Shown here: positions 1,401 to 63,954 of the stretch, piece by piece
Layout: every line of letters begins with the position of its first letter
Position numbering within the stretch: position 1 is the first letter of the stretch
NCBI GenBank assembly: GCA_023231475.1
Contig: JALJEE010000027.1
Span: 1-64,000, forward strand
DNA: 64,000 bases
Direction: 5' to 3'
Origin: Seison nebaliae
Taxonomy: Eukaryota
The notes under the pieces: generated by a model
Told to the model about the DNA's origin: nothing
Databases searched by the model: none
The model's input: only the letters and a program-made list of their open reading frames with translations
Made by a program: the position numbers and the translations under genes

Positions 1401-3193
1401 ATGGAAGAAATCGTTAAAGATCTTTATAATTATCTGAAGGAATTGACAGTTGATGAAATGGATACATTCGAATTAGCTGATAAACTTCATTTGGATCATC
1501 AATTGATCGTTGGAGCGATTAAAAGTATTCAAACATATCCAAAAGTTTCCTTCAATTTCTTCATTCAATTTCCCATATTTTTTTTGATGATTAGAGAATA
1601 AAAACGAAAGAAATAGTTTCCACTAACATCGTTATGACGGATGAAGGTAATTATATTATGGATAATAATTCTCATGAAATTAATTTAATTGAAAATTTGA
1701 AAAAATCTCAAGATTGTATGACGGAAAAAGAAGTTTTAAATTTTTGAAGAAATAATTTCGAAATTCCATTTTCGATTAGTTGATGGAATCGTTAGGGAAA
1801 TATGGATCGATCGGATTCCGTCAAGCCATGGCAAATCGATGGATTAGAATTGAGAAAGATGAAGAGAAGAAAATTAATAAAGTCATTTTGAATAAGGAGA
1901 AAGTGGAAAATGTGAAAGATGAAGTGAAACAATTATTAATCGATATAAATGATGGAAAAGTATCGGCAATAGACAAATCATTAAATCCATTGAAAAAAAG
2001 GAAATTGATCAATTTGAAAAAAATTACGGGATATATTATAACGAAAGATGAATTGTTTGAGAAAGGTCTGCCGAAAACATTCACAGAATTAACATCACAA
2101 ATGATGAATAATGGCGAATGGGAATCAATTGTATTCAAAAAATTAAATTTAGATGCTCAAGGTATACCACCAACGGGAGGATATTTACATCCATTAATGA
2201 AAGTCAGATCAGAAATTCGAGATATCTTCCTCGAATTGGGATTCACTGAAATGAAAACGAATAATTATGTAGAAAGTTCATTTTGGAATTTTGATGCACT
2301 TTTCCAACCTCAACAACATCCCGCCAGAGACGCTCACGACACTTTCTTCCTTACAAGTTTATTATTATTATTATTATTTATTAGAAATTATTTATCTAAA
2401 ATATATTCAGATCCTGAAAATTGTAAAAGTTTTGGAAATGTTGATAATTTTGAGAAGAAAGTAAAGAAAGTTCATTCGATGGGTGGTTATGGTTCCACTG
2501 GTTACAATTATGATTGGGAGAGGAAAGAAGCAGAAAAAAATATTCTTCGAACACACACAACGGCTGTCAGTGCACGAATGTTGCATAAGTTGGGAGAGGA
2601 ATTGAAATCGACTGGTCAATTTAAACCGGCGAAATTATTTTCTATTGATAAAGTCTTTCGAAACGAGTCATTAGATGCGACTCATCTCGCCGAATTCCAT
2701 CAAGTCGAGGGAGTGGTAATGGATAAGAATTTGACGTTGAAACATTTAATGGGAATTCTCCAACTTTTCTTCCACAAATTGGGAATTGAACAATTCCGAT
2801 TTAAACCGGCGTATAATCCTTACACCGAACCATCAATGGAAGTTTTTGGATTTCATCCAGGTTCATTTTTTTTTTTATTTTGTCGCAATTAAATTTATGG
2901 GTTAAATTCGAAGGTTTGAAAAAATGGGTGGAAATTGGCAATTCCGGAATATTTCGACCAGAAATGTTGGCGCCAATGGGATTCTCATCTGACGTTCAAG
3001 TTATCGCTTGGGGTCTCTCCCTTGAAAGGTTCACTTGTCATTTTTCGTTTAATTTTTTATCATTTCATTTTAAAGGCCAACGATGATTAAATATGGTTAC
3101 AATAATATACGAAGTTTAATGGGACATAAAGTTGATCTAAAGTTAATTGAGTCAACTCCCATTTGTCATATGAATGAGGGAACAGTGAAATAA
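1401..3193 (+). CDS. FARSA: Phenylalanine--tRNA ligase alpha subunit, 6 exons (introns 1545-1594, 1733-1779, 2357-2410, 2861-2913, 3029-3075)
   Basis: Motifs [48 protein letters not shown] and [12 protein letters not shown]. Splicing restores [14 protein letters not shown] and [13 protein letters not shown]; stop at 3191-3193. Confidence 0.96.
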
Positions 3194-3966
3194 AACTCAT
3201 GAACATCTTCTAAATTCATTCCAAATTTTATTCTCGTTAACTTAAATTCGATGTCAAAACTCTCAAAATGACAATCCCAAATAAAATATTGTTATGCAAA
3301 TCTTCTTATAATTTTACGGAAATCTTCTTTTCTTTCAATTTATTTTTTTATCACTCTAAACTAATTTCTGACATAAAAATCTCATTCATTTAATCATAAA
3401 TATTTTTACAATTTGAATTAATTAACTAAAAATTATTTTATATTTATACGGAAACTTACAATCGATGATTAATCGATAATATTACAATAAGTTAATCGGA
3501 ATTAATTTTCAAAAAATATTTATTTAAATAATTTTTTTAAACACTTTTCTAATTCGATCAGAAGAATTGAACGAATAATGTGTATACCGAAAAATGAATA
3601 AATTTTAAGAGATTTGCAACTAAGTCGTGTTATTTGTCTTACTCGACTCCAGGAATGAGTACGTGAAGAGGAACATTATCTAACAGTATTTTTGATGAGT
3701 AACAGTAATTCTAACTTAATTGATGAATAATTTATACAGAAAATATTCGTAGTGCTGGTAAGAAGTCTTACAACTAATAGTGAAACAGGAAAAATTTGGA
3801 ATAATCTTCTTTTGCACATAAGACATTATGATATAAAAACGTTTTAACTTCCATTCGTTTTAAGTTACCATTCAATCATTCATCTCATTCAATATATTCT
3901 TTTATTTCTCTGGGAGATTTTGAATTGTAAATGAATTAAATCAAAAACTTCCCGGATAATAATCGT

Positions 3967-3980
3967 GTTACTATAGTAAC
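3967..3980. promoter_or_regulatory. Perfect palindromic X-box-like (RFX) motif GTTACTATAGTAAC
   Basis: Fits the RFX consensus GTHNYY-AT-RRNAAC. No adjacent gene identified. Confidence 0.4.
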
Positions 3981-8335: not shown

Positions 8336-11276
8336 ATGATTAGTGATGCACCAATAATTAATGTCAATCACCAAAGTGAATATTTCGCATCTGCTCAACA
8401 ACAGTTGCCCAAATGGCAATTGGAGATTGAAGTGGCCGCCAATTTCGATGAGGCATATCGTGACACTTGTGATTTCGACGTCTTGAAAGAGGATTATGAA
8501 AAGAAGAAATCATCAAAATTTTCAATTCTAGTTGATCGAACATGTACCGTTGGCATGGTAATGATACATTTGAATAGTGAATTAACGAAAGTGAATTCAT
8601 GTGGTAATTGGTCGGATTATTGTTTGTGGTGGATCGAGGAGAAGAAATGGTTGGAACATTCCAATTGTACTTTAGCTTCCTTATGTGTCAATGCTGATAG
8701 TCATTTGTATTTCTCGCCCAGACATCGACCAATTCGTTTGCAATTACCAGATTGTAGGATTTTGTTATTGAACGCCGATTTCTCATGTTCCGTATTCTCC
8801 TGCGTTACAAGATTATGTTCCGATTTGGGAATTTCATTTTCCGAAGAACTTTCGTTAATCCATTTACCGAATCGAATGAACGCATCAACAAAACATAATT
8901 TTTCAAACGATCAATTATCGAATATTGAAATATCGACGGAAAATCTCCTTCAACGAAGTCGTCGTTCATCAAATTCAACAACAACATCATCATCAGCGTC
9001 GTCGTCGTCAGGTGTGAGAAAATTGAAGAATCGACGACATCTCAATTCATCAACTCACGTGTCAGTGAGTGATAGTGAATTGAAGAATGTGAGACAATTT
9101 GATGGAATTAGTACAACAACAACCGATAGTGGTAATATGATTCCGTTGATAACGATTAGCGGAAATATTCGATATAATTATAATTCGGAGAATATGAATG
9201 AAAATGAATCGAATGGTCGTGGAATGGTTTTAGTGGTTAAATCATCGAGACCGTGGTATTATAATAACGGTCGTTATTTCGAAATTGATTCGTTAACGAA
9301 AGCTTGTATCGATGATGCAATTCCATATAATCGACGATCGACACCGTTAGAAACAAGTATTCAATTACCAGTTCGAACGGCTTTGGGACGTTTACCGCGT
9401 GAAACGACATTTTTGGATGCTGCTCGAGTCTCTCGTTGTTGGTTGGATAGTGAGAGAACGTTGGCCGAACAAAATGTGTCTCCATTCGATTTTCTATTAT
9501 TGAGATTTAAATATTATGATTTCTATCACATCGCTCAAGGTACTCCGGTACGTATTCATCAATTATATGAACAATTACGATTGTCAATTCTATCGAATTC
9601 GGTCAATTGTACAGAGAAGGAGGCGCTGCACTTTGCCGCTCTCCAATATTCGATCGATCAACAAGAATCCATCGAATTGTCGAATAATAACAATTATAAT
9701 TTATCCGATAATTCATTTTTATCAATACCACATCATTCAAATTATCAGACGATAGACAATTATAATAATTTCAATCGAAATCATGAAATTGATGGTAATG
9801 GAATGAGAAAGAATCCAGAAACACAATCAATTATCGAAACAATCGAAGAAGAAATCAAATCATTCGGTATCACATCGACGAATGAATTCAAAAGAGAAAC
9901 AGAAATGAAAGTCGCTAAATCCATCGACAATGATGGAAATAAATCAAAATTTAGTTTTCTTACACATCGATCCCATAATAATGGTATTTCATCCAATGGT
10001 CCGACTAATACTCAATTTACACAATCGACGAATAGTTTCGATCACACACATGGAATGTCGAATAAATATGGAACAACTTCCTTTAAGAAATATTGGTGTG
10101 TTCTCCAATTGCCGATGTTGACGATGTGGAAATCAAAACAGGCTTATCAGAATTCGGCGGGTCGATTCAGTTGTGTGACTGGAATGAAACAATGTCAAGT
10201 AGATAAATTGGACACGTTCACTAACACCGATTATCAATTACGATACGATTTGACAGACGCAAAAATTTCCTCCTATACTTTAAACGGTAAATTTATCATT
10301 TGGTTAGTGGTGGCAACAGAATTTGGAGATTTAACAAAAATTACTTTGAAAACGAATATCATGGACGATTATGTGGATTGGTTGGCGATTATTCGATTAT
10401 TCTTACGATCAGGCTTAGATGAGAAATCGTACGATAATGAAAAGAGAATGATTCAAGCGACATTACTCGATTCGTCGATTAATGACAATCATACCATCGT
10501 TTCCGACGTTCTACAATCACCTTCTTCAACTTTGTCAATCGAACAATATTTTTCTCCTCTCCATTTGGGAGTCTCTCCCAAACTTTTATATTCTACAAAC
10601 ACACCACCAAATCAGTATCAAATGAAGAAATTATCACGTAAAGATGCTCAGACGGTAAAGAATTCCCTTCTGACTAATCAGCAACAGCAACTGATGAAGA
10701 AAAAAACGATGATGAAACAACTGTTGTTAGATTATCTGAATCAATTGAATTTCGATCAGATTCCATCGAATGACTTAAAATTGAACTTTATTGAGCGATG
10801 GAGATCATTACCAGATGCTGGATTCGTCTACTTTCATATTCAACTTCAAAATTCAAAAAAGTTATCGGTACTGGGCTTAATGCCAAACAGAATCGTTCTC
10901 ATAGAAGATGCAGATCGACGTGTTGTTGATCGCTCGTGGCGATTAGATGCATTAACTGATTGGTTCGTTCGATGGGAAACATCAATGGTTTTTTTTCCTT
11001 CGTTTAAATATTTAATTAATTATATATAATTATTAGATTACATTAATGTTTGAAAATGATCGGTTACAATTCACATGCACATCATGTCAATGTCAAACAT
11101 TACACGAATTTATTGGGGGATACGTCTATTGCGCTTTACGATTCCGTTCGGATAAATCGGATGCACAAGACACCGTCGACGGAACAAAATTACGTATACG
11201 TCTTAACGAATTTCGACCGGATGAAAACATTTTCAAACAAATGACACGAGGAAACCCCTCGCGTTTGAAAACATAG
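8336..11276 (+). CDS. FERMT: Kindlin / fermitin family (FERM with inserted PH domain), 2 exons (intron 10988-11036)
   Basis: F0 motif NWSDYCLWW; WLDSERTLAEQNV..LLLRFKYY; RIHQLYEQ; ALHFAALQY. Spliced F3 end reads RWETSM|ITLMF...LHEFIGGYVY. Confidence 0.92.
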
Positions 11277-12156: not shown

Positions 12157-13868
12157 ATGAATTCTAAAATTTTCCTCATAATTCTCTTACAAATCAACTA
12201 CCTGCCACTAATCTATCCACGACTAACATCGTTGTTGGATTTGAGACATAAAATAATGGAACATAATGAAGAAACGAAACGACAACGAGAATATCTTCGA
12301 TGGAAGAGTCAAGAAGAAATGAAACTTCGGAGGAAGGAACATCGATTGAGAGTTTTGAAGTATTATCAGTTAAGAGCATCGACATCCACCGTCTCAACGA
12401 CCACAACGTTTGCCGAAAATACTCCCTTGGAAACTACTCCACCACCAGTCTTGAACATTTCTCCCGTTGTTCAATATAATCCATTTGATCGTTGCAAACA
12501 TTGTCGTTACATTAATCAATTACCGATGAACGATCAAATTCTTTTAAGAAAAATGAAAGCATTAAATGACATTCTACAGTTCTCATTTAACTTCTTCTTT
12601 CATTATTTTAAATAAATATTTTTCCTTTATTTAGTCATCTCAACATTAAGAATATATCGGAATATAATTACAATTTAGAATATAATCGTGAAACAAGGAA
12701 ATATAATTCGAAATATATGTTACGAACCGTCCGATTACCATCATATATCCAAGAGCAAATCGATGAAGTCAATAAAAATGATTTCGTCGAAATGAAACAG
12801 TTGGGAGAGAAGAATATTGCCAATTTAGAAAAACGAATAAGATTATCTCGATTTCGTAAAGACACTCCAATTACACGTCAATATATCGAACCTCAAAAAA
12901 GTTTGAAAATTTTTTTCATTAATTAATTATTATTAATTTCATTTTTTTCAACTGTTTCCAGATTTCTTTTGCATCGGCCGTTCATCCTTATGTATCTATT
13001 TTCCGAAGAATTTAAATCGAATGAAAGGTATCAAATATTTGACATTGAAAACGGCACTTCTCCTTCCGATGAATAAAACTTTATGTAACACCGAACCAAC
13101 TCTCATTTTTTATCCAATGCCAAATAATAAATCGGAGAATCTTTATAAAACCGATCAACCGGTCGTTTTCGATACCCAACCAATGGGTTCATAATTTTAT
13201 AATTATAATTTAATATTATTTATTTTTTGAAGGAAATTGGACGAGAATTCCATTGATAACTTTGAAATCGACAACTGATCATTCAGCTCGATGGAATTTC
13301 GAAGATAATCGAGGAATAACAATACGACGAGCTGGTTGTAACAATAAGAGAATGAACGAACTATTTCCAATTAGTAAACAATCGCCTTTATTCGAATATA
13401 TCGTAATGAAAATCCAATTAAATAATGTTAATGAAAAAAAAGAAAGAAAACAAAGATCGAATTCGATAACTGACGAGAAGGAAAACGAATTACCACAATG
13501 TCTATCGGAAGCGAAAAAAATGAATATTGATATAATTAGTAATAAACAATGTTGTCTTCGTTATGTCACGCTGGATTTCAGCAGTTTTGGTTGGCATTGG
13601 ATCATTTATCCGAAAACCTTTAAATTAACATTTTGTGATGGATATTGTGGAGGTTTATTTCATTTTATTTATTATTTTGAACATTTTCATTAAATTATTT
13701 CTTTTTTAAGCATTAACTCATATTAATCAAAAAGTTAGTGGATTTTCCAAATGTAGCGCCATGTCCAAAGCTCCATTAGTGATCGTATATCGAGACGAGA
13801 AGAATCGAAAATTGTTAAAGACAATTCAAATACCGGAACTCAGAGCAACATCTTGTCATTGTATGTAA
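12157..13868 (+). CDS. TGF-beta superfamily ligand (activin/myostatin-type cysteine pattern), 5 exons (introns 12579-12634, 12901-12961, 13187-13232, 13653-13710)
   Basis: Signal peptide, prodomain and RKQR furin site, then C...CCLRYVTLDFSSFGWHWIIYPK...FCDGYC...C...SCHCM-stop. The frame is continuous after splicing. Confidence 0.9.
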
Positions 13869-14127: not shown

Positions 14128-16129
14128 ATGGATAATTTCGATGATTTTTTGAAAGATTTCAATTCTGATGAATCTGATTCTGATGATACTGTAACTGAGA
14201 AGGAAGAAGAGAAAATAATAACGAAAATTATAGAACCAAGGAAGAAGAGAGTCGAAGGAAAATGTCAAGATATTAATACGTTATTAAAGAATGATGAGAA
14301 GAAGAAGATAAATGAGAAGAATTCATTAAAGGAAAATGATAAGAATAGTTTCGTTGAAAAAAATTCTTCAATAAAAATTGTAAATTCAATTGTGGATCAG
14401 AAACATTTGACGTCGCTCCAAAAATATCGTTCCTATTTACCTTTATCGAAAATCAGCGTTTATTGTCGTCAAAATCAAAATAAAGACAAAATAAAAAATG
14501 ATGGAAATGGATTTATTCAAATCGATTCCTCCAACGAATGGTTCACCATCGTTATTGTCACCAACATCTCCGAAACTTTAGTATCATCGAATGGCGGTAA
14601 ATATATCCGATTATCAATCGTCGATATGGGTTGTATTTCTTCTCCTAAAACTCTCTTTTTATTTTCCTCCGGTTTCGAAACGGTATGGAAAAGCTTATCG
14701 AATGGAACTGTTCTATCATTGTTGGAACCGAAATTGATGGTTGATCAAAAACAGATGATGTCTAATTCATTAGATCATATTCGATTGTCAATTTCGAACG
14801 GTGAACAAATTATGATTTTGGGTCAGAATATGGTGGTGGGACGTTGTAAAGGTACGAAGAAACTTAGTAGTCAAGAAACTGGTCAATGTACCAAATATGT
14901 TAATCGGGAAACGGACGATTATTGTACGGAACATTATATGTCGATGTGTTCACAATTGAGAAATAATCGTCCTGCAATCAATTCCACTCAATCTCTTGTC
15001 ATTCCGAAGAAATTCAGTCAGATGAATGTGAAGAAATCGATAATTCCATTACAAACGACAAAGAATTCGAATAAGAGAACATTCGACGAATTTCATCGTT
15101 TACTCAATTTAGACAATTCACCAAAAGAAAAAAATAAATTTTGTTTAGAAGAAATTTTGGAAAAGAAACGAAGTTCTAATTTTCTTCCAATTTTTCATAT
15201 TTAAATTCTCTTTCGAATTTAAATTATTAAATTTTCTTTCGAATTAAAGAACGCGATGGAGATTTGAGAAGTAATGCATCGAAATTATTTGAAGCTAGTA
15301 AAGAAAGAAAAGGAAGTTGTTTTTTCAAAAATTAAATTCAAAAGAAAAAATTTTAAATTTCTTCAATAATTTATCTAATTTTGATAGAGAATGTACATAA
15401 TGAAAAACGAGAAGCATTATCGTTTGTGAAGAAAGTTGTGACGAATATTAGGAAGACTGTTAGTTGTGTCTTTGATATTTGAAATTATTTGTATTATTTG
15501 AAAGAATATTAATGAGACGAGAAAGAAGAATGCAATTGAAATTTGGCAAAAACATCAAAAAATGGATCCGTTGGAAAGATTGAAGAAGGAGAAAGAAGCG
15601 GAGAATATTCGGATGAAATGTTCGAAATTGAATATGGAAACGATTCGATCGGAAAGAATTTCTGGATTATTAGCGAGTAGTAATGAAATAAAGAATATTA
15701 ATGAACTGAAGAATGATATGAAAGAGAATGAATTGAAACGGTTGGAAATGTTGGATGATATCGAAAGTAAGTTGGAATCGATTCATGAGAAAGAAGTGAT
15801 CGTATTCACTTGTGAGAATGTTAGAATGATTCTATAAATTCATTTAATTCTCTATTTTCTAGTGTAAGAAAACTAGACAAAAGAAATCGGCGTTATGTGT
15901 CGAAGGAAAACATCGGATTTATACTCATAAATCTAAAATAAAATTTTTCGTTTGCGATAATTGTAAGACGAGATGTACGACTTTTGCACTCTATCCAGAT
16001 AGAGCTTGTGACAAGTGTGGAGAAACGGCGAAATTCCATCGATCCGGATTAATAACGGTGAGTGGAGAAACGTCGTTACATAACGAAAAATTATCATTGC
16101 GTGGACGAGAAGAAAAGTTTTTATCGTAA
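14128..16129 (+). CDS. MCM10: DNA replication factor MCM10, 5 exons (introns 15173-15249, 15316-15387, 15459-15504, 15820-15862)
   Basis: OB-fold (SSNGGKYIRLSIVD), CCCH finger (GRCKG...CTKYVN...YCTEH), C-terminal Zn motifs (CENC...C...H; FFVCDNC...CDKCG) and the LRGREEKFL end. Confidence 0.9.
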
Positions 16130-17192: not shown

Positions 17193-20100
17193 TCACAACA
17201 TTTTAGAAATTGAAAAAATTTTATTTTTCGAATCTCGATTGTCCGGTTTTTGTTGTTGTTGTGGTTGGTGAAGGATATTAGACTGGTGAGATTGTTGTTG
17301 TTGAAGGATATTCGAATGTTTAGATTGTTGTTGTAGAAGGATGTTAGACTGCTGAGGTTGTTGTTGTCGTTGTTGAATAACATTAGACGATTGTTGTTGT
17401 TGTTGTTGTTGTTGTTGGCGATTAAGTTGGGAAGTCGATTGGTTTGGTTGTTGACCGTAAGACATTGAAATGAGATTGAGTAAATCTTCTTGATTTGCCG
17501 TATTAAAATCAACATTTTCAACAAGTTGTTTTATAATTTGATCATCGTTTAGTTGTGGTGAAGTCAATAATTGTTCCAACAGATTATTGTCATTATTATC
17601 CAAGTTAGATATATTCATGAGAGAATTCAAACTTTCATTTAATAAATTGTTGTTGTCAGACTGCTGTAAATTGGGGATGTTTACAGATTGCAATAAATCT
17701 GCATAATTACCCTGTTGGAAATGTTCGAGCAGATCCTTCAGATCCACCTTATCCAAATTCATTACTTTATTCTTCTGTTGATTGTTCCTCCTGTTATTCG
17801 ATGTCCTTCTTCCCGTATTTCCCGATCTTTTACTCGACGATTGCCCCGACAACTTACTCGTTTGACTTACCGTTGTCGGTTGGTGACAGTTTTGAAATTT
17901 TTGAGATTGATCCATTTTTTCCAATTTCTGTCTTCGTTGTGAAAGATTTTGTCCAGCTGACACATTCGTATTCCCAAAATTCTGTTGTTGAGATTTTTGC
18001 GATTGTCTTCGCCTATTTTGTTGTTGTTGTTGTTGTGTTTGTTGTTGTTGTTGTTGTTGTGTTTGTTTTTGTTGTGTTTGTTGTTGTTTTTGTTGTGTTT
18101 GTTGTTGTTTTTGTTGTTGTTGTTCATTATTAGTATTAATATATGGCATGAGAGCTCGAAGGATTTCATCCATACTTTGATGTGTCCAAGTATTGGGATC
18201 CAATCCAATGATTAGATCTGCCACATTTGACGGTAGATTTTGGAAATCGGAAGGCGATTCTAATAATTTCATCATGTTAGTAACGACCATGGTGGTTTGA
18301 TCTATTTCTTGTTGTGCCGGTTGCACGTTCGACTGATTAGACGACGAGGCGTTTACTTTATTTATCGACGAGTTACTCAAATTGGATGTGGAAGGATTGA
18401 CCGTCTGACTCTTTCTCATTTGTTCACTTTCTTTAAAATTCAAATTAATTTTCTTATTCTTCCCAATATTAGCATTTTGATGAACAACATTATTATTATT
18501 ATTATTATTATTTCCCATTTGTTGATGATGAACTATTTTATTTTGTTGTGATTGAAATTGATTAGCACAATTAACACCCAAATGATTCTGTGAAGAATTA
18601 CTTCTATTTATTTGATTCTTCTCGTTCATCAAAATATCTGACGATCCTGAAGTCATTTGTAAACAATTCAATTGATTTTGAATATTCGACATCTGTTGTT
18701 GTTGTTGTTGTTGTTCTTGTTTCGGAAATATATTCGAATAACTTTTTTGTGATATTTTAAATTTCTTTGGTGGCATTTCGCTTGAATTATTTTTAGCATT
18801 ATTCAACGGTCTCTTCGATCGGAAGAAATCACAAAGATTTTGCGAATCCGAAGCGATTGAACATAAACTATTGAAAACTTGGTTATCAGCTTCGAATAAT
18901 AACTGCCATGGAATATTATCCATATCGAAATCTATGTCACCTTCAAGACTATGACGAAGTTGTTCAATTTGTCGTTCTCTCTCCACAGCTGTCATGTCCA
19001 CCTGACAAGGTTCCGATTTCACCGGTTTTGACGACGGCACCGTTATTTGCGGTTTTGGTTGAAGTCGTGGAGGAATGGGTGGAAGTAACGGACGTGGGAT
19101 AACCGGAGATTTCCTTTCAGGAATTCTCGGTCGATAAATTAATCTAGGTCGCATTTTCTCCACTGGAGGTGAATCGTCTGATTCATCAGATGATGATAAA
19201 TTTCCATTTTTAATTTGAATTTTTTCAAATTCAGCTTCCACTTCACCAAATCTTTCTCTCCTCGTCATTAGTATTCCAGCCACCATTTTCAAGATGAATA
19301 TTCGTTGTTCTAATTTCGTTCGATGTTGTGGAATGATGATATCTGAATGATTTCGAACTCTTCGATAATTTAATGATTTGTTAATATGATTTCTTCTCTT
19401 CTCTTTCGTATCTTCAAATAAATATCTGTCCGGTAGAGAACTAGAAGATGCTTCTCTCACTCTCACTTTCTCCTTCTTTTTTCCATCTTCATCTATTTCT
19501 TTTTCGAATTGATTTAAATAGAAAAAACAATTTGGTTCTTCCAATAAATTGGGAAGTGGTTCGTCAATTTCTTCCACTTCAAATTCTTCGATATTTTCAT
19601 TAACAAATATTTTATTTTCTTCATCCGATTCCCATTTCACTTTACTCACCAACGGTGGTATCGATGGCCAATATGGATAATATTTGAAATTTATCGAACA
19701 ATTCTCGAGTGTTTTCGAATTGTTCAAATTGCAGAAAATCGATCGAATTCGAAAATAACTCGACATTTTAATCGAATCTCCCGCCGTTTGATACGACGAA
19801 TTCACATTACAAAATTGTTTTAAACTACTTCGATTATTCGTCACAATCTTACCACCCGAATACAACAATTCCGTCAACTGATTGATGATTATTAATGGTT
19901 GAATATCGATCATCGATCTAAAAAAAAATAAAAAAATTCAAAAATTTTTCATAAATAAAAATTGAACATGATCAATAAGAAAAGATCTTGGATAAATTGA
20001 GAGACCTTTTCAATCTTCCAAAACCGGAATAATCGACAATTATTTTCATCTATTCGATTATTCATATCTGATCGATTAATGGATGAGCTGATGGTTTGAT

Positions 20101-24674: not shown

Positions 24675-24720
24675 TTAGATGGATTGTTCTCATAATTCAA
24701 ATCATAAAACACACAATAAA

Positions 24721-25489: not shown

Positions 25490-27056
25490 ATGACAGAAGA
25501 AGAGAAAGAAAGAATAAGCACGGACCATGAGAAAATTGAAAATGGGGATATATCAAAACCCCAAGAAGAAAAAGCTACAGAAAAGGTAGATGAGACGAAA
25601 CCGAAAGAAAATAAAGAAATAGAAAAAAAAGATGGCAAAGTGGACGAACCGAATCCAGATGATGGTTCTTTTTTAACTTGATTTATATCTTCAACCACTT
25701 ATTATCTAGCTTTCCGTGATCCTAATCCAGGACCGTTAAATATATTTCATTTTTTTAAACACACTTTTCTATTTCATCCGATAGAGATCGATTGTTGTGG
25801 GATATTGCTCATGATCTAATAAATCTTCGAAAAGAGAAGCAGAAGAATATTGATGAACTCTCCAATGAATATACCACATTAGTTTTGGGCAGTCAACGAG
25901 CATTAAAAACAACTATCATCTATGAATTTTTGGGAAAGGCTTTAGACAAAAGAACCTCAACAACTGGCTTAGACTATAATTTCGGAAGGAAATTCATCGA
26001 CAAAACGATGAAAAGAATTGTCGGTCATGTTTGGGAATTGGGAGACGGAACAGATTTATTGAGTTTGGTGAAAGTAGTGTTAAATGAGAGAACTGCAGTT
26101 CATTCATCTGTAATTCTCGTGATTGACTTAGGTGTTCCTGAAGAGATTTGGCACACTGCAACTGAATGTATTGCAGCAGTGAAACCGACGGTCAATACGA
26201 TAATTGGAAAAATATTAAAAAAGAAAACACCAGAAGCATTAGAGATTATAGCGAACGTCAAACATCGAAATGCTAAAAATAAAGTTTATCGTCTTAAGAA
26301 GAAGATATTTTTATTTATTTTTGTTTTTTTAGGATATGAAAAATAGTCTTTATGTTCCATTCGCCATTATCGCAACAAACTATTCCAAGTTTCAAGTGGG
26401 ATAACTTTCTGAAATTTCACAAAATAATTTTTCATTTAAATTTTAGGGGTTAGATCCCGAGAATCAGAAAGTGATATGTCAAGCATTGCGTTATTTAACA
26501 TTTGCCAATGGAGGATATTTGATCGTTTCCATTAGATTTTTTCAAATTTATTTCATAATTCTTTTTCGATGGTTTTGAAAGACATATGATGATAAAACAA
26601 AATCGAATATAAATATGATGCTCAATTCTTTCGTTTTCAAAGAACAACATCAGTTAGTCTTAATATAAAAAACAACAATTAAAATTTAATTATTCTAATA
26701 AGTAAAATAAAACATCCCAATCGAACTTATACGTCTCCATTATCGATCGGTCCTGGAAGTGACGACTTATCTGATATAAAAGGTTCTTCTTTTAAACTTC
26801 TTTTAAACATATTTCAAGTTGAATGATTCTTTAAGATACATCTTTGATCGAGAATAAGAATAATGAATGGAATGGAAAAATGAAGGAATTATATCCAAAG
26901 AGGAAAGCGAGAAGGAAATTGAATCAACGAACGAAAGAAGAGAAAGAGGAAATCGCGAAAAATTTCCATGAACCAGATATTGATGCGGCGAAAGACAAAA
27001 ATGAATTTATTCTGAAACATTATCGAAAGAATTATTTAGAGAAACAGAAATCTTAA
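25490..27056 (+). CDS. DYNC2LI1: Cytoplasmic dynein-2 light intermediate chain, 8 exons (introns 25665-25709, 25735-25784, 26284-26332, 26396-26446, 26525-26581, 26653-26702, 26783-26835)
   Basis: LWDIA, LGSQRALKTTII, LDYNFGR, HVWELGDG, VIDLGVPEEIW. Spliced product gives YSKFQ|GLDPENQKVICQALRY and PLSIGPGSDDL. Confidence 0.9.
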
Positions 27057-42038: not shown

Positions 42039-42091
42039 GATTTGTCTTCATCTTCTGAATCAGTTTCCTGCAAATCCAGAAAGTAATTAGA

Positions 42092-44754: not shown

Positions 44755-45810
44755 ATGGTTGATAAGAAAAAAGTTATTATTCATTCAATTTTCCATGAAA
44801 CTAAAATTTGAAACATTTAAACTTTAGAAAAAGGGTAAAGTAAAAGGAAAGACGAAAGGCAAAGGTAAAGATAAGGGAAAAGGGGGAAAGAAAAAGAGGA
44901 AAGTATCATCCATAAAAACTTCTGATAAGAATGAGACTGAAAGTGCTGCTCCCAGTAATTTATCTCTTATGCCAAGCATCAGTAAAATAAGTAGAGGAAG
45001 TAAAGATGACTTAACCGAAAGTTGGATAATTTTTAATTCTCTTAAAATATTCTTTGTCCATACTTTCCTCAGATCGTTCGGTCTCCGCCCTGAAACTTTA
45101 TCAGCCAAAGACTAAACATAAAAAACACAAAAAAACAGTGAAAATTCCGGAAGAGGAAAAAGACTTAACGAGATTACTTACCACTCGTCCCAATTTTAAA
45201 GATTATTCAATTAAAGTTATTTCAATTCTTTCTTTCAAATTTCTTAAATTTAAATGAACTGTTGACAAGGAATTGAAAAATCCGAAATATCCAATCATTT
45301 CTCATCATGGTGCAGCTGTTGATAAGAATAACAAACCATTAGTACTACATAATAAAAAGAATTTGGAAGTGAATGACAAATATGCGGAATATGATGAAGG
45401 TGATGCCACTTTCGTTCCACCCGCTACTTTGGCTATCGTCAAATTACGAGAAATGGGCAAGAGTGATTTCGAAAATATTGATTTTTCCAATCCTCTCCCC
45501 CAAGGCATAAGCCGAGGCTGGGATTCAACTCGTCCTCAATCTAATTTCAAAAATTTTACGAAATATTATAAAGAACCGTTACAAGGACAATTACCGTTAG
45601 AAGAATACTTCCCCGATTGGACACATGATTATCGTATCATTGATAAAACTAACATGAACAAAGCAAACATTTATAAATTAGTGTTAGTTGAAGTTTTTTT
45701 TAATAGAAATTCTCTTAATTTATTTACGGAACGTATTTAGACATATTGTGGGTAAAATGCCTCCAAGATTATTTGACTACACAATAAATAAATTTAAGGA
45801 AGGAAAATAA
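44755..45810 (+). CDS. Unknown basic protein, paralogue A (Lys/Gly-rich N-terminus); introns 44773-44827, 45021-45072, 45216-45269, 45683-45740
   Basis: Frame is continuous after splicing; co-linear similarity and shared intron positions with paralogue B. Confidence 0.65.
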
Positions 45811-46086: not shown

Positions 46087-46976
46087 ATGAAGACTACTAT
46101 GTGGAATAAATCAGCACGATCACCTTTTAGCAGTTTTAGTTGTATGACTTATTTTTATGTGTTCTTTTGTTAGTTCTTTTAATTAATTCCATGATAATAG
46201 CATTGAAAAGCGTATCTCGTATGAGTCTGTTGGTGGGTCGAAAGAAGAGAGTTCTTCATAGCAAACTTGTAGAAAAACAGTTGACACGATTAACTTTAAA
46301 GAAAGCACCAATCAAAGATTACACGAAGAAAGTGAATTAAATAATTTTAGTTAATGATAATTCGTATTTCAGGAATTAGAATATCCGATTAAATGTAAAT
46401 ATGATATTCATGCATTGAAAGTTGATCGAAGTGGGAAACTGTTGTTATTGAACTCACCGAAAGACGTGAAAGTATTGGACAATTATCAAGTTTATGATGA
46501 AAGTGATCCGAATTTTATGCCACCTCCCGAATTAGCAGTCGTCAAATTACAACAAACACAACGTAATGATTTTGAAGATATAAAATTTCAGCCTAAAATC
46601 GAACTACCCCCCAATTATCGACGGACAAAACCTTCGAATGTCACCAAAGACAGCTCGTTCACTAAATTTTACACTCGACCAATTGAAAGACAAATACCGT
46701 TTGATGAAACATTTAACTATCTTCCTGAACATTATATGAGAACTCGGAAAATGAAAGCGAATGCAACTCAAGCTGAAGTCTTGGCGATATTGTTAAATTG
46801 TGTTGAATTTGTGTTAAAATTTAAATTTCTAAATTTTCAGTGAACAATTCCCAAAAATGCCGAATCGATTAATTCAACAAACGGCACAACGATTGAAAGT
46901 ATATCAACAGGAAAAGAAGTTAGAACAAGAGAAAAAGGAAAAGAAAATTATGCTGCCTTATTTGGGGAAATATTGA
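46087..46976 (+). CDS. Unknown protein, paralogue B; introns 46133-46173, 46332-46372, 46792-46840
   Basis: YDESDPNFMPPPELAVVKL vs A's YDEGDATFVPPATLAIVKL; FTKFY vs FTKYY; KMPNRL vs KMPPRL. The start codon is uncertain. Confidence 0.62.
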
Positions 46977-49180: not shown

Positions 49181-50478
49181 ATGCAGTCAACTCTAATTAA
49201 AAGTGAATGTCTCCCACAATTGAATGATAATAGCACGAACGATAACAATCATTTATCAATCGATCAAAATGAGAAACGAACTAATCGAAGAAAACCCAAT
49301 GTTACCAGACGATTTCAAGGTGTCAATGACAAGCGAATGGAATTGACCACTCCCGAATTATTAAATACTCAATTCGCCAATGATCAACATGATGTAAATA
49401 TCCACCAGAATGATGACGACGAAGCTGTCGCCGATTTAAATCAAGAGACGATCAATAACAATCATCAATCCACAACCATCATCGAACCGAGAAGAGATAG
49501 TGTTGCCTCCACCTTATCGGATAAAAGTAGTGGATGTATTTCAAATGGAAGTCGATTTAGCGAAGACGATATTTGTGCAGCGAAACAAAATTTAAATCAG
49601 CCATCTCATATGAAAAATGAACATTTAGAAGATCCGGAAATATTATCCAGCATTCTTCACCGATTACTCGGCAACAACAATTCCAGTCTTGCCGACGTAT
49701 TGCAAAATAAAATTATGTTAAAAATTCATGAAAATGAAAGAAATACTCCTTCGCCACCTACCACCTCACCACCAAATACTCATGAAGTAAAAGAAATAAA
49801 GAAAGAATTGGAAACTTATCCCAAATTGGCAGCTATGTTATCAGGCGATTCACCCAAATCTTTACCGAGAAATTACAATTCCACCAATCCACCATCTCGT
49901 GCCTCTCCCCCAAGAGGACGGTCACGAATTGGTAGTGATGATTTGAAAAATCAGACAATTGCTGAATTATTAGGTAATCGACGTCGTTCCCTCATAAGAA
50001 GTGTGGAAAAAGAAGGATTATCGAAAATTAATGTAAATGAAGTTCTCTCTTCTACTGGAACAACCGTGGGAACTGTTCGAAAATCGACGAAAAGAAATGC
50101 TCCTGTCAAATCTCTCACGGCCAATAAACAATTAAGAATGGATCGGTTTGTAAAATTTGAAATTTTAAAAAAAAATAATTTTAAAAAAATAAATTTTTTA
50201 GTTCGTCCGACACTCCATGTGACAGTGGTAGTGGAAGTGGTAGTGGTGGAGAATCATCGAAAAAAACAACTATGGACGGTGTTGATTTAGCATATTTGGA
50301 ACGAAGAAGAAAAAATAATGATGCGGCGAAACGTTCGAGAGATTTACGACGACAAAAAGAAGATGAAATTGCGTTACGCGCTGCGTTTTTAGAACAAGAG
50401 AATTTGGAATTACGAGCAAAAGTTGAATTGTTGAGAAGTGAATTGAACAATCTTCACGTCATTCTATCGATGAGATAA
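49181..50478 (+). CDS. PAR-family bZIP transcription factor (giant/CES-2-like), 2 exons (intron 50146-50201)
   Basis: [38 protein letters not shown] followed by a leucine zipper; the intron joins the two ORFs in frame. Confidence 0.92.
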
Positions 50479-53588: not shown

Positions 53589-56305
53589 ATGGCAACTTGT
53601 CATGTTTCAGGTGCTTCAATGTCTCTCACGCCCAAAATCAGACGATCGAGACTGTTCATGGAACCGTATCGTAGTTCGCTCACTTGTATAAAACAGGAAC
53701 GATTCAACCGGTATTCATATCCATCCAAAATCCGGTTAGATGATACTTGGAAGAGATACATCAGAAATATTCCTCCCTGGAACAATGAAATGAATAAGGA
53801 GAACATGACACAACTCGATGTTTCTGTTAGTTGTCCAAATTAATTTTAATTATCATCTAAAAAAAATTTATTTAAAATAATTTCAAATATCATTTTAAAA
53901 AAAAGTGAATGGAAATTTAATTAAATTGAAATTAATTATGTTCATAATTAATTTTTTGAAATGTTTCATAAAATTGGAAAATAGTTCTAGAAAAAAAAAA
54001 GAGAGAAAAGTTAATAAAACGAATTTGAGTTAATGTTTCATGATAAAAAGAGGAAACTTTTAAAAGGAATTCAGACACATTTACTTTTCAATTCAAATTT
54101 TTGTTTTAACTTTCCTTTTTCTTTTACCAGGAACATCTAATCAATCGCTGCGAATTTATTTCTCATCATATTCACGTCTTGAAATATTTCGTACAAATCC
54201 ACAAAACCATCGACCGTCATCTTATTCCTCGCGTCGAATTGACTGATTGTCAGAAGTGCACGATCGAAGAGTTTAATAGAGTTTATGCCGATATCAGTTT
54301 GTTGGAGAAGATGTGTCATCGAGCAACAGCGATGAATAGAATAAATGAAATAAGAAATCGTTTACAACGATTAACATTATCGATGCGTGGATTGGAAGAG
54401 CAATATTGTCATACGAGATTGATGGAAGATAAAAAAAATGAATTTCCACAAGAAGAATTGGGAGTCACTTTATTATCGATCGAAACATTAGAGAATCATA
54501 TGGAGAAAGTATTCAAGAGATTATGTCATCTTTTTGAAATGTATGAGCGTGAATACGAGAATAAAATGGCGGATAAATCCGATAATTATGGAAATTATTC
54601 CGATTGTTATTCTGACGGCAAATTTGACGACACTTATACCGGAATGTCATCAATGATGGAGAGTTGTAAGATATCTGGTGATTCGGATAATTTGTTCGAG
54701 AATGATGGATACGGATCATCAGAATGCGATTTATTAAAATCCGATTCAAATTATCTATTAAAATCACAATCTAATTATTTATTGAATGTTTATGATAATG
54801 AAGTGAATGGAAATTGTCTCTATAATGAATATGATCGAACTCCAAAACGTCGTCAATTTATGTCGAATGGAATTCAAAATCATAATTGTAATAACAGTTG
54901 TAATAATCATGAAATGTTTAATAATTGTCTTCATTCTAGTCACCATGCGAATCATATGACTGAATTCAATGGAACTCCATTGAAACATCGACTTAACACG
55001 AAAGAATTCATCGATAATAAATTGACATTTTGTGCCGTTCGAGATAATTATTTAAATAATTCGACCGATTGTCTCGACCATCAAGACGGTCATACTCATT
55101 TGGATGAATCGATTAACGTTTCTTCTCCTTTATCTCAATCCATCACTACCAATCGTCAAATGAGTCCATCGAGAGAATCGAAATTAAAACCGAAAATCTC
55201 ACCAGCTTTATCGGTCAATTCTCAACAAACCGTTCATTCATCATCGTCGAATAATTCGGCATTGAGTAGTGTACAAAAGATTGTGGTTCAAGAGAATGGA
55301 ATTACTCGTCTCACTAATTATACGCCACCACCAAATATCAATATTAATCGATATAAAACGGAATTGTGTCGTCCGTTCGAGGAGAAAGGCGTTTGTCGTT
55401 ACGGAACGAAATGTCAATTCGCTCATGGTAAACATGAATTAAGAGATTTAGATAGACATCCCAAATATAAGACAGAACGATGTAAGACTTATCATACGAA
55501 AGGTTTCTGTCCATACGGACGACGTTGTCATTTTCTTCACGACGATTTGGGATCATCAACAGATTTGTTGTATGATCTCGAATTGACCAGTTCGAGTGAA
55601 AATAATTTATTGAATATGAATACAAATACCAACAACAACAGTAGTTCAACAAGTAACGGCAGTTCTGGAAATGAAGAAATGGAAACGAGCAACAAAATCG
55701 ATGGAAAAAGTGAGGAAAAAAAAACCGTTCTAAAAACCGTTTTAAATTCCTTCATTTCAAATTCACCATCGACCGTCTCGTCGAGACGTAATAGTGTTTC
55801 GACAAATGGTAATAAATGTCAAAAGGAGAAAGACAACATTTCTGATTATCATACGGCTGATTATCTTCTCGAACAATTAGTGGCGATTCGAGACGAGAGT
55901 AAAGTTCGTGAATCGAGTAACGACTCCGTTGAAATGGAACGAGACGATCTTATGGAAGCGAATAATAAAGTCCAAAATCAGATTCGTTCGATTGAAGAGG
56001 AAATTAATTTGTCTTTAAATTTATTGACGGAAGGTGTTAAAGGTGATGTTTGTGAACATGAAAATAATTCAAATAATAACGAGAAAATGGAGAGGGAATT
56101 ATCAGACGATAATGAACATAACAAGGAAAATGAGTTGAGAGTAAAACCGAGTATTCAACTGAATGGCGAATATTTGTCTTCTCCACAAATCAGTCAAACG
56201 ATCAATAAGAAGTGCAAGAATAATGGGACTAATGAAAAGAAAGTTGTAGAGAGTCCACGAACTGAGAATACTTATTCTTCTATTCTTCGACGTTCCTTAA
56301 TCTGA
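53589..56305 (+). CDS. Tis11/ZFP36-family tandem CCCH zinc-finger ARE-binding protein; intron 53820/53826-54130
   Basis: RYKTELC-x8-C-x5-C-x3-H followed by KYKTERC-x8-C-x5-C-x3-H. The first exon is inferred from a phase-0 join. Confidence 0.88.
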
Positions 56306-60400: not shown

Positions 60401-63106
60401 TCAACTAAATTATTCGTTTGATCTAATGACGAATTGGATTCATGTTTGGAGAATTGACGAATATTCTTCCCATATTTCCGTTTATTATCAATCGGAGTCT
60501 TTTTTCGAACCTCTACCGTTTTCTTCTGTTTATTACTTTTTAACGATGTCATACTGATGGTATCATTCGATACTTCTTTTGAAAAAGATGTTCCATTTCC
60601 TTTCGGTATTCGTCTCATTTTCGTTCGATTTATTCCAGTTTTACTATTTATCGAAATATTGTCCAATTGTTGTTGACTATTACCTACAACATTTTTCTTC
60701 GATAAATCTTTCTTTCGATTTCCAATTTCCGTTCGTTTTATTTCTTGACGAGGTTTCCCTTTAGACGCTATCGAACCGTTCGAGGTACTAAGAATTCCTT
60801 TGATATTCGTTGTCGTATGAGAAGATTTTTGAACTAATTTATTCTCCTGTACTTTCTTCTCAACCTGTTTACCGGAATTTATCGGTTTTGTTGTAGACAT
60901 CGATTTCTTGACAACTTTTCGAATAACTGGTACTTTTGTGACAGATTGCTTCACCGGTTCCTGATTCGATTCGATAGATGATCTTGAAATCAAATCAGCT
61001 TTCGATGATGAATTACTTGGTCGTTTCGATGAAATATTTGGTCGTACTTTAGAAGTTGTTGGAATTACTGGAGGTTCTGATATTTCCTCTACGACAACTT
61101 CCACTGGAACTGGTTCGATCGGTTTAATAATTTCTTTTTTAATTTCATCTTCTTTTTCTTCAATTATTTTTATTGGAATCGGATCAGGTTCACGTTCAAT
61201 TTCATATTTTGTTGTTTCAACTGAAAAACTTTGTAAATTCGATTGAGTTTCTTTATTACTCGTTGATGGTTCGAGTAAGGAGGAAGGACAAATTGATTCA
61301 TTTTCATATCGAATCAAATCTGTTTGTTTTGAATAAAGATCTTTATAGAAATATCGATTCCATGATCTGATAATATCATCATCTAAATTCGGAATGTTCA
61401 TGACGTTCGGTGTGTTCTTTCTCATGAAATTTTTAGTCGTTTCATTTTGGAAAGATTTCTCCAAATTCTCATTTATTCGAATTTTGATCGGTAGAGGTTT
61501 ATTGAGATCAAATCGAAATTGATCATTTTGTCCTTCTAATTTCTTAAAGAATTCATTCGATTTATTATTCATCAACTTCTCCAACAATTGAGAACGTTCA
61601 TCAATTTCATCTTTCGATATATCGGATGGTGTTGGAATTGATGTTGGAGCAGAATTGAAATTCATTTCTAACAATTCTTCATCATCTCCATAATCAAATT
61701 TCGCCAAATTCGCTAAATACTTTTTTCGTTTTTCTTCTTCATTCACTTTCGACGATTTGATGATTTCTGTCGATTTCGGTTCGAATTTCATTTTTTGTGT
61801 GGATAAATTTAAAATTTTAAAATTATCAAACTTTCTTTCGTTTAAATTTTCAAATTTCTTTTCGCTCAAATGCGATGTGACGTCTATTCGTTTTTGATGG
61901 AATTTATCATCCATTTTCTGATCGTTTGATATGGTTGATGGTAGAATGATATTCTCTTTTGGTTTCGGAAAACTGATCGACGATATCGTCGAACTATTTT
62001 TCGAAATTGATGGTGAACTATTCAACAAATTCCCAATTCTTTTATCAGCCGATTGAGTTAGAATTGACGTGACTAATTTAGATGTCTCTGTTGTTGTTAT
62101 TGTTGTTGTTGTTAAAGTATCTTGTACATTTGTTGTTGTTGTTGTTATTGAATTTTTTGAAGATAATTTCAATTTCAATTCATTCAATCGTTGAAGGAAT
62201 TGATCGGCGGAATTTAAAGATTTTGCATTTAGTTCTTTCGTATCTTCCTCGACTTCGTCACTACTTTCCGACAAAGATGATGATAACGATAATTCTTTTT
62301 TTCCATCAATATTTCCTGATGATTTTGATTTGGGAGATGATTTATCTACCAAATCCAACCAGAGAGCTCCAGCGTCAATTGGTGCGCTTGTAAAAATTTT
62401 TAAAGGTATTTGGGCACATCCAATTTTCGAAGGATTCTCCTCCGATAATTTCGTATCCCAAACGGCGAAATTGATTTCTGTCGATTCCACATCTTTTTCT
62501 GGGATGGGACTGAATGCAAATTTTTGATTCCAAACTGGATCGCATGTTTGTTTTAATGTTTTTGTTTTTCTCGATGACAATAATTTTCTCTCGCTAAATA
62601 AAGTGATTCGACAGAAAACATCTAACATCATTCCACTAACAGCCGATTTTGGTAAGGAAACTGCTCCCATTACCCAAACTCGAAGTTCATATTCTTTCGC
62701 TTCAATTTTCACTTGTAATCGTCCTTTGATGGCATCAGTCAACTCTTCTAATGGATCGAAATATTCAGTGAATTTCTTATTCGATTTTTTATTCATTTGA
62801 TTATAATTATTGTTCATATAATTGAAATGAACTTCCTCGTTATCCGAATTAATTTGTGGAGACGAATAAACGTCATTCAATTCATCCATATCATCCATTA
62901 ATTCATTCTCCCAACCAAATCCCATTGTCGGCGTCGCTGGATCGATTATCGTACTATTGATTAACGTATCGATTCCATCCGGTTTCAATATCGATGCTAA
63001 TGATGTCGCTTTATTCGCTAACGTATTGAAAATATTCGTCGAAGAATTCAATCCCAACAAACTATTCGTTGAACTCATTTCACTCACAATACTTGTTGTT
63101 GGAGTT

Positions 63107-63141
<35 letters not shown>

Positions 63142-63954
63142 AATTAACGATGATGAATGAGATATTTCATTATTTTCATTATCATTTCCTGTTAATTTAG
63201 ATAAACTGTCAAAAACGGAGAATCTGGACGAGAAAGTTTTGGACAGTTCCTCATTCTTCCGACTCAATTTATCCAGAACTGAACTAGTTCGATTCATAGA
63301 GAATTGTTCACTCTTATTCCTCAACATCTTCAGCGGGGAATTTTGTTGTGATGAATTTTCATTTTCCATTTTCTTCGTTCCTTCTTCGATCATATTACGG
63401 ATACCGGAAAGGAAGTTTGCACCATCATCTAATTCATATGTTTTGGAAGAAGTTTCTTTATTTTCTAGAGACAATTTTTCATATTTATTCGTCATTTTCT
63501 CTTTGGGCAAATTTGATTTTCCATCTTTCATTGATATCAATGACGTTGGTTTCCTGCTTGAAAATAAAATATTTTTAGCAATGACTTCTCAAATTTTATT
63601 TTATAAAACAAAATTTTAACTTCTCTTCAGATTTGAATAAATTCACTTTTTCCAAATTTTCATTATCTCCTTTCACGATATTTGGTAGAATGTTTGTTTG
63701 TTTCGTATTATTATTTGAACGGAAATTTGTCGTCATTGTTATTCCACCAACAGTAGTAGTAGTAGGAGGAGCGATACTAGTGATGGTGGTAGAGATAGTG
63801 GCAATTGTGGTAGTGGTGATGGTAGTGGGAGTAGTAAATTGAGTTGTAGACGAACTAGTGGAGATATTTGAGAATAGATTTCCCAATAAACTTTTTCGTC
63901 CATCATCTGATTTTTCTTCCTTCTCAAATTTCTTCTCACTTTTGTCAGTTTTCT
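57442..63954 (-). CDS. RIM/UNC-10-like active-zone protein (C2A and C2B), 5' end beyond the window; intron 63557-63620
   Basis: FVDGLGPGQIISRQALASPCLGKIQL and GDYGKLDRNSFMGVAQV (RIM C2B), GFNRTEEI, and C2A RKTKTLKQTCDPVWNQKF. Another acceptor lies at 63955. Confidence 0.88.

What the first reader, a model, noticed from the sequence alone, without database searches (positions are those of the whole stretch)
1545..63620. Shifted 5' splice-site code: introns start GTT, not GT(A/G)
Seen: of 51 introns inferred in 14 genes, 47 begin GTT. Examples are all five in FARSA (GTTTCC, GTTTTA, GTTTAT, GTTCAT, GTTCAC), all four in the TGF-beta gene and all four in MCM10. Exceptions are GTG (26396, 46332), GTC (33282) and one ambiguous site (43239/43245). 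Many junctions are fixed by conserved protein motifs. The recurring form is GTTAG(T/A/C) (15459, 15820, 26653, 30925, 31202, 31671, 31948, 32983, 45683), which is GTAAGT with only +3 changed. Established: animal U2-type donors strongly prefer a purine at +3, read by the U1 5' end (AUACUUACCUG) and then the U6 ACAGAGA region; GTT is normally a minority class. Inference: this lineage has a rewired spliceosome, for example a compensatory U-to-A change in U1 (AUACUAAC...) or altered U6, U1-C, LUC7 or PRP8 contacts.
Basis: partly seen in the sequence, partly recalled or inferred. Interest (0 to 1): 0.92.

Follow-up and report, generated by a model that had tools for sequence, protein, structure and literature searches.

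The report
Animal introns that begin with GTT
In this tiny rotifer-related animal, nearly all of the introns inferred from the DNA begin GTT instead of the GTA or GTG usual in animals, so its splicing machinery likely reads intron starts differently, probably through a changed base in a splicing RNA that could not be found here.

Summary
Confirmed at DNA level. Database names give the species as Seison nebaliae (Syndermata). Of 50 introns in 14 genes, 47 begin GTT, 2 GTG, 1 GTC, none GTA; T follows GT in 34-48% of background sites. It holds in 29 introns fixed by database proteins (27 GTT), against homolog profiles (12 of 12), and in a gene model biased 20-fold against GTT (31 of 38). No RNA run was available, so no junction is RNA-verified. 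GTTAG is only 9 of 48; the donor is AA(G/A)|GTTN(G). An adenosine opposite +3, most likely in U1, explains U-only best, as in Entamoeba. Against it: the one U1 found in runs holding this DNA is canonical, though it may be the crustacean host's. U6 was not read. Shifted register and introners are not supported. My searches found no animal case in print; the scan noted GTT donors before only in protists.

The parts
1545..3075 (+). FARSA gene (CDS 1401-3193): introns 1545-1594, 1733-1779, 2357-2410, 2861-2913, 3029-3075; all GTT
   Evidence: Exact mapping of P0001; homolog profile ranks each first; donor-blind model posterior 0.96-1.0
10988..11036 (+). Kindlin-like gene: one intron, GTT
   Evidence: Gene model posterior 1.0 under all three priors; Pfam Kindlin_2_N, FERM_M
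12579..13710 (+). TGF-beta family gene: introns 12579-12634, 12901-12961, 13187-13232, 13653-13710; all GTT
   Evidence: Gene model; Pfam TGF_beta; the GTG alternative at 13647 removes the second Cys of CDGYCG (motif recalled)
15173..15862 (+). MCM10 gene: introns 15173-15249, 15316-15387, 15459-15504, 15820-15862; GTT (15459 has a GTC rival at 15468)
   Evidence: Gene model; Pfam Mcm10; 15820 keeps a CENC pair that the GTA rival 15802 removes
19918..19967 (-). TAF2 gene: one predicted intron 19967-19918, GTT
   Evidence: Sequence; gene model posterior 0.56-0.66; Pfam TAF2 domains
25665..26835 (+). Dynein light-intermediate-chain-like gene (name recalled): introns at 25665, 25735, 26284, 26525, 26653, 26783 (GTT) and 26396 (GTG)
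   Evidence: Exact mapping of P0123 and homolog profile
30925..34005 (+). Ig/HYR membrane-protein gene: introns at 30925, 31202, 31344, 31671, 31948, 32983, 33771, 33955 (GTT) and 33282 (GTC)
   Evidence: Exact mapping of P0121; Pfam Ig_2, weak HYR
37732..37938 (-). Wnt gene: introns 37938-37874 and 37783-37732; GTT
   Evidence: Gene model posterior 0.96-1.0; Pfam wnt
42206..43940 (+). F-box gene: introns at 42206, 42283, 42699, 42878, 43017, 43157, 43245, 43893; all GTT
   Evidence: Exact mapping of P0122; 42283 and 43245 have GTG/GTA rivals under a human-like prior
44773..45740 (+). Unnamed gene: introns 44773-44827, 45021-45072, 45216-45269, 45683-45740; all GTT
   Evidence: Gene model; 45683 chosen because it gives KMPPRL in frame, matching KMPNRL of the neighbouring paralog
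46332..46840 (+). Unnamed paralog: introns 46332-46372 (GTG) and 46792-46840 (GTT)
   Evidence: Gene model posterior 1.0 under all priors
50146..50201 (+). bZIP gene: one intron, GTT
   Evidence: Gene model posterior 1.0; Pfam bZIP_2
53820..54130 (+). Tandem-CCCH gene: predicted 305-311 nt intron, donor 53820 or 53826, both GTT
   Evidence: Enumeration of frame-compatible donors; Pfam zf-CCCH
63557..63620 (-). C2-domain (RIMS-like, name recalled) gene: predicted intron, donor 63620 or 63609, both GTT
   Evidence: Enumeration of frame-compatible donors; Pfam C2

Best explanation
The short GT-AG introns inferred in this window begin GTT in 47 of 50 cases, a shifted donor that is likely genome-wide in this animal and is probably read by a co-evolved splicing RNA with an adenosine opposite intron position +3, most likely U1 position 6. 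Shown in DNA: T at +3, no A at +3, residual canonical features in the normal register (A at -2/-3, G at +5), nothing at +4 or +6, introns of 40-77 nt, no intron families. Inferred: the introns are excised by the major spliceosome; short AT-rich introns are defined largely by length and composition, leaving GU plus +3U as the main paired core; an A opposite +3 pairs U only and clashes with A or G, which would give both the U excess and the loss of the ancestral GUA. Established knowledge: U1 position 6 and later U6 G44 face +3. Not shown: the variant RNA itself.
For: Canonical register retained: -2A 31 of 48, -3A 27 of 48, -1G 15 of 48, +5G 16 of 48. 27 of 48 introns have a GTA/GTG within -40..+25 that is passed over; real donors are best or tied among local GT sites in 34 of 44 with an A6 U1 against 24 of 44 with canonical U1 (partly circular, since it restates the +3T excess). 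Precedent: the only +3U lineage I found in print, Entamoeba, has U1 ACAAAC (bioRxiv 10.1101/2022.06.08.495308). Window-level pattern holds in every gene with two or more introns across 62 kb.
Against: Runs X1 and X4 each gave exactly one U1-like contig on an invertebrate U1 reference, and its 5' end is canonical (ATACTTACCTG). Its depth in X4 (15.2) is about 0.55-0.6 of the window's depth in sibling run X2 (25-28), close to the 79x/132x two-peak ratio published for this species' genome B (PMC8351084 section 6), so it may be the animal's own; in X1 the ratio is about 0.39. No U1 with A at position 6 was found in the metagenome collection (0 matches; 0 of 136 in the relaxed scan), so such a U1 is rare. 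In Saccharomycotina, donor shifts at +4 came without any U1 or U6 change (PMC10581693). No RNA junction data; one 64-kb window only; database gene models may share a trained donor bias.
Confidence: 0.45

Rival explanations
1. The donor shift is real, but U1 is canonical; +3U is selected later, by U6 (a U-G44 wobble, or a G44-to-A change) or by altered proteins (U1-C, LUC7, SNRNP27K, PRP8, SNU23).
For: Canonical U1 in both holder runs, one contig each, at a depth compatible with the lower peak of the species' genome. U6 G44 faces +3 and C. elegans snrp-27 mutants shift +3 preference (PMC11732430 passages). Roy and Bowser note that GUUUGU could pair better with U6 ACAGA. +4 shifts in yeasts track METTL16 and SNRNP27K, not snRNA sequence. 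+5G, which pairs U6 C42, is kept in 16 of 48.
Against: G44 should accept C at +3 at least as well as U, yet C is 1 of 46. With canonical U1, GTA would bind best, yet it is 0 of 48. I found no printed case of +3U dominance with a canonical U1. The U1 contig may be the host's: its nearest match among 119 metagenome U1s is L113, of unknown taxon.
Confidence: 0.38
2. Canonical U1 pairs in a +1 shifted or bulged register, so that its A7 reads +3U (Roca-Krainer type sites used as the norm).
For: Gives an A partner for +3U with the canonical U1 seen; -1A in 22 of 48; shifted pairing separates real from decoy GT sites as well as the normal register does (AUC 0.67 each; best or tied in 29 of 44). Earlier scan notes propose this for foraminifera (unchecked).
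Against: Shifted register predicts G at +6 and A at +4/+5 (prediction from the U1 sequence): +6G is 1 of 48 (2.7 expected by chance), +4A and +5A are at background, -1A is not significant (p=0.12), while -2A and +5G of the normal register are enriched.
Confidence: 0.07
3. Artefact or local effect: T-rich introns and a self-trained annotation make GTT look dominant, or the window is unrepresentative.
For: Intron interiors are 48-50% T and 6% G; no RNA run to check junctions; the gene model's intron, acceptor and length parts were trained on the annotated introns; low-confidence model paths do contain GTA/GTG donors (12 of 52 non-GTT with a flat prior).
Against: 45 of 48 against 50% (p=7e-11); homolog profiles built without this species' proteins rank the same junction first in 12 of 12; a prior penalising GTT 20-fold against GTA still leaves 31 of 38 confident donors GTT; the pattern spans 14 unrelated genes on both strands.
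Confidence: 0.08
4. The introns are recent insertions of a transposon family (introners) whose end happens to be GTT.
For: Would give a uniform, non-canonical start without a changed spliceosome (established for other lineages; recalled).
Against: No similarity among 47 introns beyond shuffles (mean local score 7.7, max 17; shuffled 7.5, max 14-19) and no target-site-like repeats (0-1 nt at 38 of 47 junctions).
Confidence: 0.02

Closest known systems
Entamoeba transformed donors GUUUGU(U) with co-evolved U1 (ACAAAC); Roy and Bowser, bioRxiv 10.1101/2022.06.08.495308 (abstract, passages and section 22 read)
   Same: U at +3 in nearly all introns, GT-AG termini, G at +5 retained.
   Different: Entamoeba is an intron-poor amoeba with strict donors (87.9-89.5% GUUUGU) and +4U; here an animal with up to nine introns per gene, +4 and +6 free, +5G in a third only. 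U1 compensation is shown there and unresolved here.
+4U donors of Saccharomycotina linked to METTL16 and SNRNP27K; Parker et al. 2023, PMC10581693 (passages)
   Same: A lineage-wide change of one donor position in the normal register.
   Different: Position +4, explained by U6 A43 and proteins with invariant U1 and U6; here +3, where canonical U6 offers G, not A.
Shifted- and bulged-register human 5' splice sites (Roca and Krainer 2009; paper not held; seen only as cited in PMC9311317; GUUAAGU consensus recalled)
   Same: Introns that start GUU with a canonical U1.
   Different: A rare class in humans with a displaced AAG core; here +6G is 1 of 48 and the normal-register features are the enriched ones.
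Ordinary animal U2-type donors, CAG|GUAAGU, +3 usually A or G (PMC9311317, PMC11732430 passages)
   Same: GT-AG ends, -2A, -1G, +5G tendencies.
   Different: Purine at +3 in 2 of 48 here.

Membership tests
U2-type spliceosomal introns | GT...AG termini whose removal restores a conserved reading frame | tested here: met
   29 of 29 junctions in four database proteins have one GT-AG placement; homolog profiles agree in 12 of 12
U2-type spliceosomal introns | No U12-type 5' signature (GTATCC) | tested here: met
   0 of 48 have A at +3
U2-type spliceosomal introns | Excision from the transcript | not testable with these tools
   No RNA holder listed; X1 and X2 behave as DNA
Entamoeba-type transformed donor with co-evolved U1 | U at +3 in nearly all introns | tested here: met
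   45 of 48; window only
Entamoeba-type transformed donor with co-evolved U1 | U at +4 and a strict GUUUGU hexamer | tested here: not met
   +4T 14 of 48; GTTTG 3 of 47
Entamoeba-type transformed donor with co-evolved U1 | U1 5' end rewritten to pair the donor | tested here: inconclusive
   One canonical U1 contig in each of X1 and X4, owner unresolved
Entamoeba-type transformed donor with co-evolved U1 | Intron-poor genome | tested here: not met
   50 introns in 14 genes of this window, beside several long intronless frames; window only
Shifted-register (+1) 5' splice sites | G at +6 and A at +4/+5 | tested here: not met
   +6G 1 of 48; +4A 17 and +5A 16 of 48, at background
Shifted-register (+1) 5' splice sites | A at -1 | tested here: inconclusive
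   22 of 48 against 37% background, p=0.12
U6- or protein-driven donor shift (METTL16/SNRNP27K type) | Canonical U1 and U6 with loss or change of a splicing protein | not testable with these tools
   No genome held; U6 and the proteins were not read
Introners | Families of similar introns with target-site repeats | tested here: not met
   Pairwise similarity equals shuffles; junction repeats 0-1 nt in 38 of 47

The most novel reading that the evidence does not exclude
This is the first animal whose major spliceosome has swapped the snRNA base that reads intron position +3, so that GUU replaced GUA genome-wide in an intron-containing genome with otherwise degenerate donors, without the intron loss and signal tightening seen in Entamoeba.
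Probability: 0.45. Interest if true: 0.85.

Novelty: new variant of a known kind. Interest (0 to 1): 0.7.

Why it matters
The purine at donor position +3 is treated as a constant of animal splicing, tied to an invariant U1 5' end. An animal that has turned it into U in about nine of ten introns shows that thousands of sites and their reader can move together in a metazoan. Either outcome is informative: a rewritten U1 would be the first animal case of snRNA-donor co-evolution; a canonical U1 would mean that +3 is set by U6 or proteins against U1's own preference. Syndermata offer sequenced relatives (bdelloids, monogononts, acanthocephalans) to date the shift, and gene finders with a standard donor model will misplace junctions here.

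Tried and rejected
No whole genome is held for the window. No RNA holder listed; this says nothing on expression. X1 and X2 laid on 25400-45390 gave no spliced joints and behave as DNA. No Rfam family in the window. X6 and X7 (organism B) gave no U1 contig (no proof of absence). L113, the nearest U1, could not be extended, and upstream sequences did not assign it to a taxon. Rows dropped before the count of 48: model-proposed introns at 26346 (GTC) and 33538 (GTG), absent from the database proteins; Wnt 36798/36750 (GTA), because the open frame runs on through the terminal Cys to a stop; 34207 (GTA, only under the human-like prior); 46142 (GTA) or 46133 (GTT), rival first introns, neither needed if the gene starts at a later ATG; 36489 (GTT, posterior 0.78, gene uncertain); 33233 (GTT, 0.5); a candidate at 63891 (GTT) or 63939 (GTG) that could not be put in frame. 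Where the model and I differ (15459 vs 15468, 15820 vs 15802, 13653 vs 13647, 45683 vs 45693/45634) I chose by motif or paralog, except 15459, which rests on the model alone and has a GTC rival. No branch-point word stood out among 5-mers. PMC3033335 held none of six terms; PMC1557818 passages gave no +3 figures; supplements of PMC8351084 held none of five spliceosome terms, the long file being cut; bioRxiv 2024.08.01.605096 does not mention introns or splicing.
Full report
Source. No genome is held for the window. It is 29-38% G+C. A FARSA frame finds as best hit a protein that NCBI names SNEBB_001807 of Seison nebaliae; all other listed hits are 52-57% identical. Two further genes return only SNEBB_001814 and SNEBB_001819, and a fourth returns an unnamed 100% match, P0123. 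The animal is thus, by database name, a seisonid (Syndermata) living on the crustacean Nebalia (PMC8351084, passages). Contigs of runs X1 and X2 cover 25400-45390 without a letter difference and without spliced joints; both behave as DNA. No RNA holder was listed, so no junction below is RNA-verified.

The observation. All 14 quoted positions read as stated. Mapping the four database proteins letter for letter gives 29 introns, each with a single GT-AG placement: 27 GTT, 1 GTC, 1 GTG. These models may carry their own trained bias, so I ran two checks. First, profiles built from 60 FARSA and up to 70 dynein-chain homologs, without this species' proteins, scored every frame-compatible GT-AG variant within 36 bases: the database junction ranks first in 12 of 12; four had no rival at all, and three in poorly conserved parts won by 0.4 bits or less, one of these over a GTG. 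Second, a gene model that knows only 'GT' at the donor (coding model from long frames; intron, acceptor and length models from the annotated introns) was run on 13 regions. With a flat +3 prior, 40 of 52 best-path donors and 35 of 38 with posterior 0.9 or more are GTT; with a human-like prior (A 0.60, G 0.34, T 0.03; figures recalled) still 36 of 52 and 31 of 38. T follows GT in 34-48% of background sites. The curated set is 48 introns in 12 genes: 45 GTT, 2 GTG, 1 GTC, 0 GTA (p=7e-11 against 50% T). Two more introns have only GTT candidates, for 47 of 50 in 14 genes. Dropped candidates, several of them GTA or GTG, are listed under Tried and rejected.

Anatomy. Introns are 40-77 nt (one 176), 50% T, 33% A, 6% G. 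Donor counts of 48: -3A 27, -2A 31, -1G 15 and -1A 22; +3T 45; +4 A17 C13 G4 T14; +5 A16 C6 G16 T10; +6 A17 C6 G1 T24. Enriched over background are -3A, -2A, -1G (weakly), +3T and +5G; +4A and +6T are not. GTTAG is 9 of 48. In 27 of 48 introns a GTA or GTG lies within -40..+25 and is passed over. The introns form no families and have no target-site-like repeats, which disfavours introners.

The snRNAs. The window holds no Rfam match. I laid runs X1, X4, X6 and X7 on the most central of the animal-type U1 genes (L012). X1 and X4 each gave one contig, 80 of 91 letters alike, whose loose 5' end reads ATACTTACCTGGACG and whose 3' side carries CGTC and an Sm-like AATTTTTG: a U1 with a canonical pairing end. 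Whose it is could not be settled. For the host or another passenger: depth below single copy (0.39 in X1), a conservative sequence for a long-branch animal, the chance that a divergent own U1 escaped an 80% match or the tool's filter, and closest likeness among 119 distinct U1s to L113, of unknown taxon. I put it near even. U6 was not read.

Mechanism. U1 (AUAC-psi-psi-ACCUG) pairs CAG|GUAAGU (PMC9311317 passages), which sets position 6 against +3; U6 G44 later faces +3, 'usually an A or a G', weakly (PMC11732430 passages). A near-exclusive U with loss of A is what an adenosine partner would impose. I commit to U1 position 6 (0.45), because the one +3U lineage I found in print, Entamoeba, has exactly such a change (bioRxiv 10.1101/2022.06.08.495308) and because G44 would not exclude C. 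The canonical U1 keeps the rival, canonical U1 with selection by U6 or proteins, almost level (0.38); yeast +4 shifts came with no snRNA change (PMC10581693 passages). A +1 shifted register would also put an A (A7) on +3U and scores as well as the normal register against decoys, but its predicted +6G is 1 of 48 and the enriched positions are those of the normal register (0.07). Pair counts favour an A6 U1 (AUC 0.84 against 0.67), which partly restates the observation. Shown: the DNA pattern in this window.

Known and new. It works like the Entamoeba transformed donor but fails membership on +4U, the strict hexamer and intron poverty; U1 compensation is inconclusive. Ten searches of the held library returned no paper on donor sequences in Seison or other syndermatans and no animal with a +3U majority; the genome paper mentions introns only for length, a later preprint not at all, and PMC10125929 notes alternative splicing of Seison lamins only. 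Subscription papers and preprint supplements were not visible, and I obtained no +3 frequencies for related animals, so whether the trait is shared with bdelloids or acanthocephalans, or visible in published logos, is open; I recall GTT as a sizeable minority in some AT-rich invertebrates, untested here. The scan has noted GTT donors before in protists (Bonamia, foraminifera, one with a proposed second U1; unchecked AI notes, which prompted my shifted-register test), and nothing in this genome or look-alikes.

Verdict. Real and well above chance in this window; a new variant of a known kind, apparently the first in an animal; mechanism open between a rewritten U1 and a later reader. Interest 0.70.

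Noticed in passing
L052:2236-2401 (-), L087:301-466 (+), L089:301-466 (+): Metagenome U1 genes (Rfam 70-73 bits) with changed position 5: ATACATACCTG in L052/L087 and ATACGTACCTG in L089, which would pair GTATGT and GTACGT donors; organisms unknown.
   Followed up: partly
L001, L012, L018, L028, L034, L057: Dense clusters of U1, U2, U5 and mostly U4 genes, some with U6, U3, SRP, 5S or tRNA genes, within 3-5 kb in unnamed metagenome contigs.
   Followed up: no
window, 47 introns: Acceptors are loose: TAG 22, CAG 13, AAG 12, no GAG; no branch-point word stands out; lengths 40-77 nt with one of 176.
   Followed up: partly
window 17193-24352 (-): The TAF2 frame appears to continue through one 50-nt intron into a 900-residue Q/N-rich frame, giving a predicted 2,355-residue protein.
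   Followed up: partly
window 24679-25116 (+): Small frame with a signal-like start, an RNRR site and a Gly/Asn/Lys-rich remainder, reminiscent of glycine-rich antimicrobial peptides (recalled); no Pfam match.
   Followed up: partly
window 44755-45790 and 46200-46960 (+): Two neighbouring Lys-rich genes without Pfam match share a last intron position and a KMP.RL motif, so they are likely tandem paralogs.
   Followed up: partly
window 36101-36550 (+): Frame with CEQC and CRHR motifs, recalled as CtIP C-terminus-like; ends about 160 bases from the convergent Wnt stop; no Pfam match.
   Followed up: no
window 57442-63588 (-), 27316-29715 (-), 34148-35959 (-), 40942-41871 (-): Very long uninterrupted frames (C2 protein 2,048 codons; kinase; RBBP4-like; JAB/AMSH-like) sit beside genes with 7-9 tiny introns.
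   Followed up: no
window, 48 donors: +5G tends to go with +4A and against -2A (both p=0.054), a hint of the U5-class/U6-class split described in PMC11732430.
   Followed up: partly
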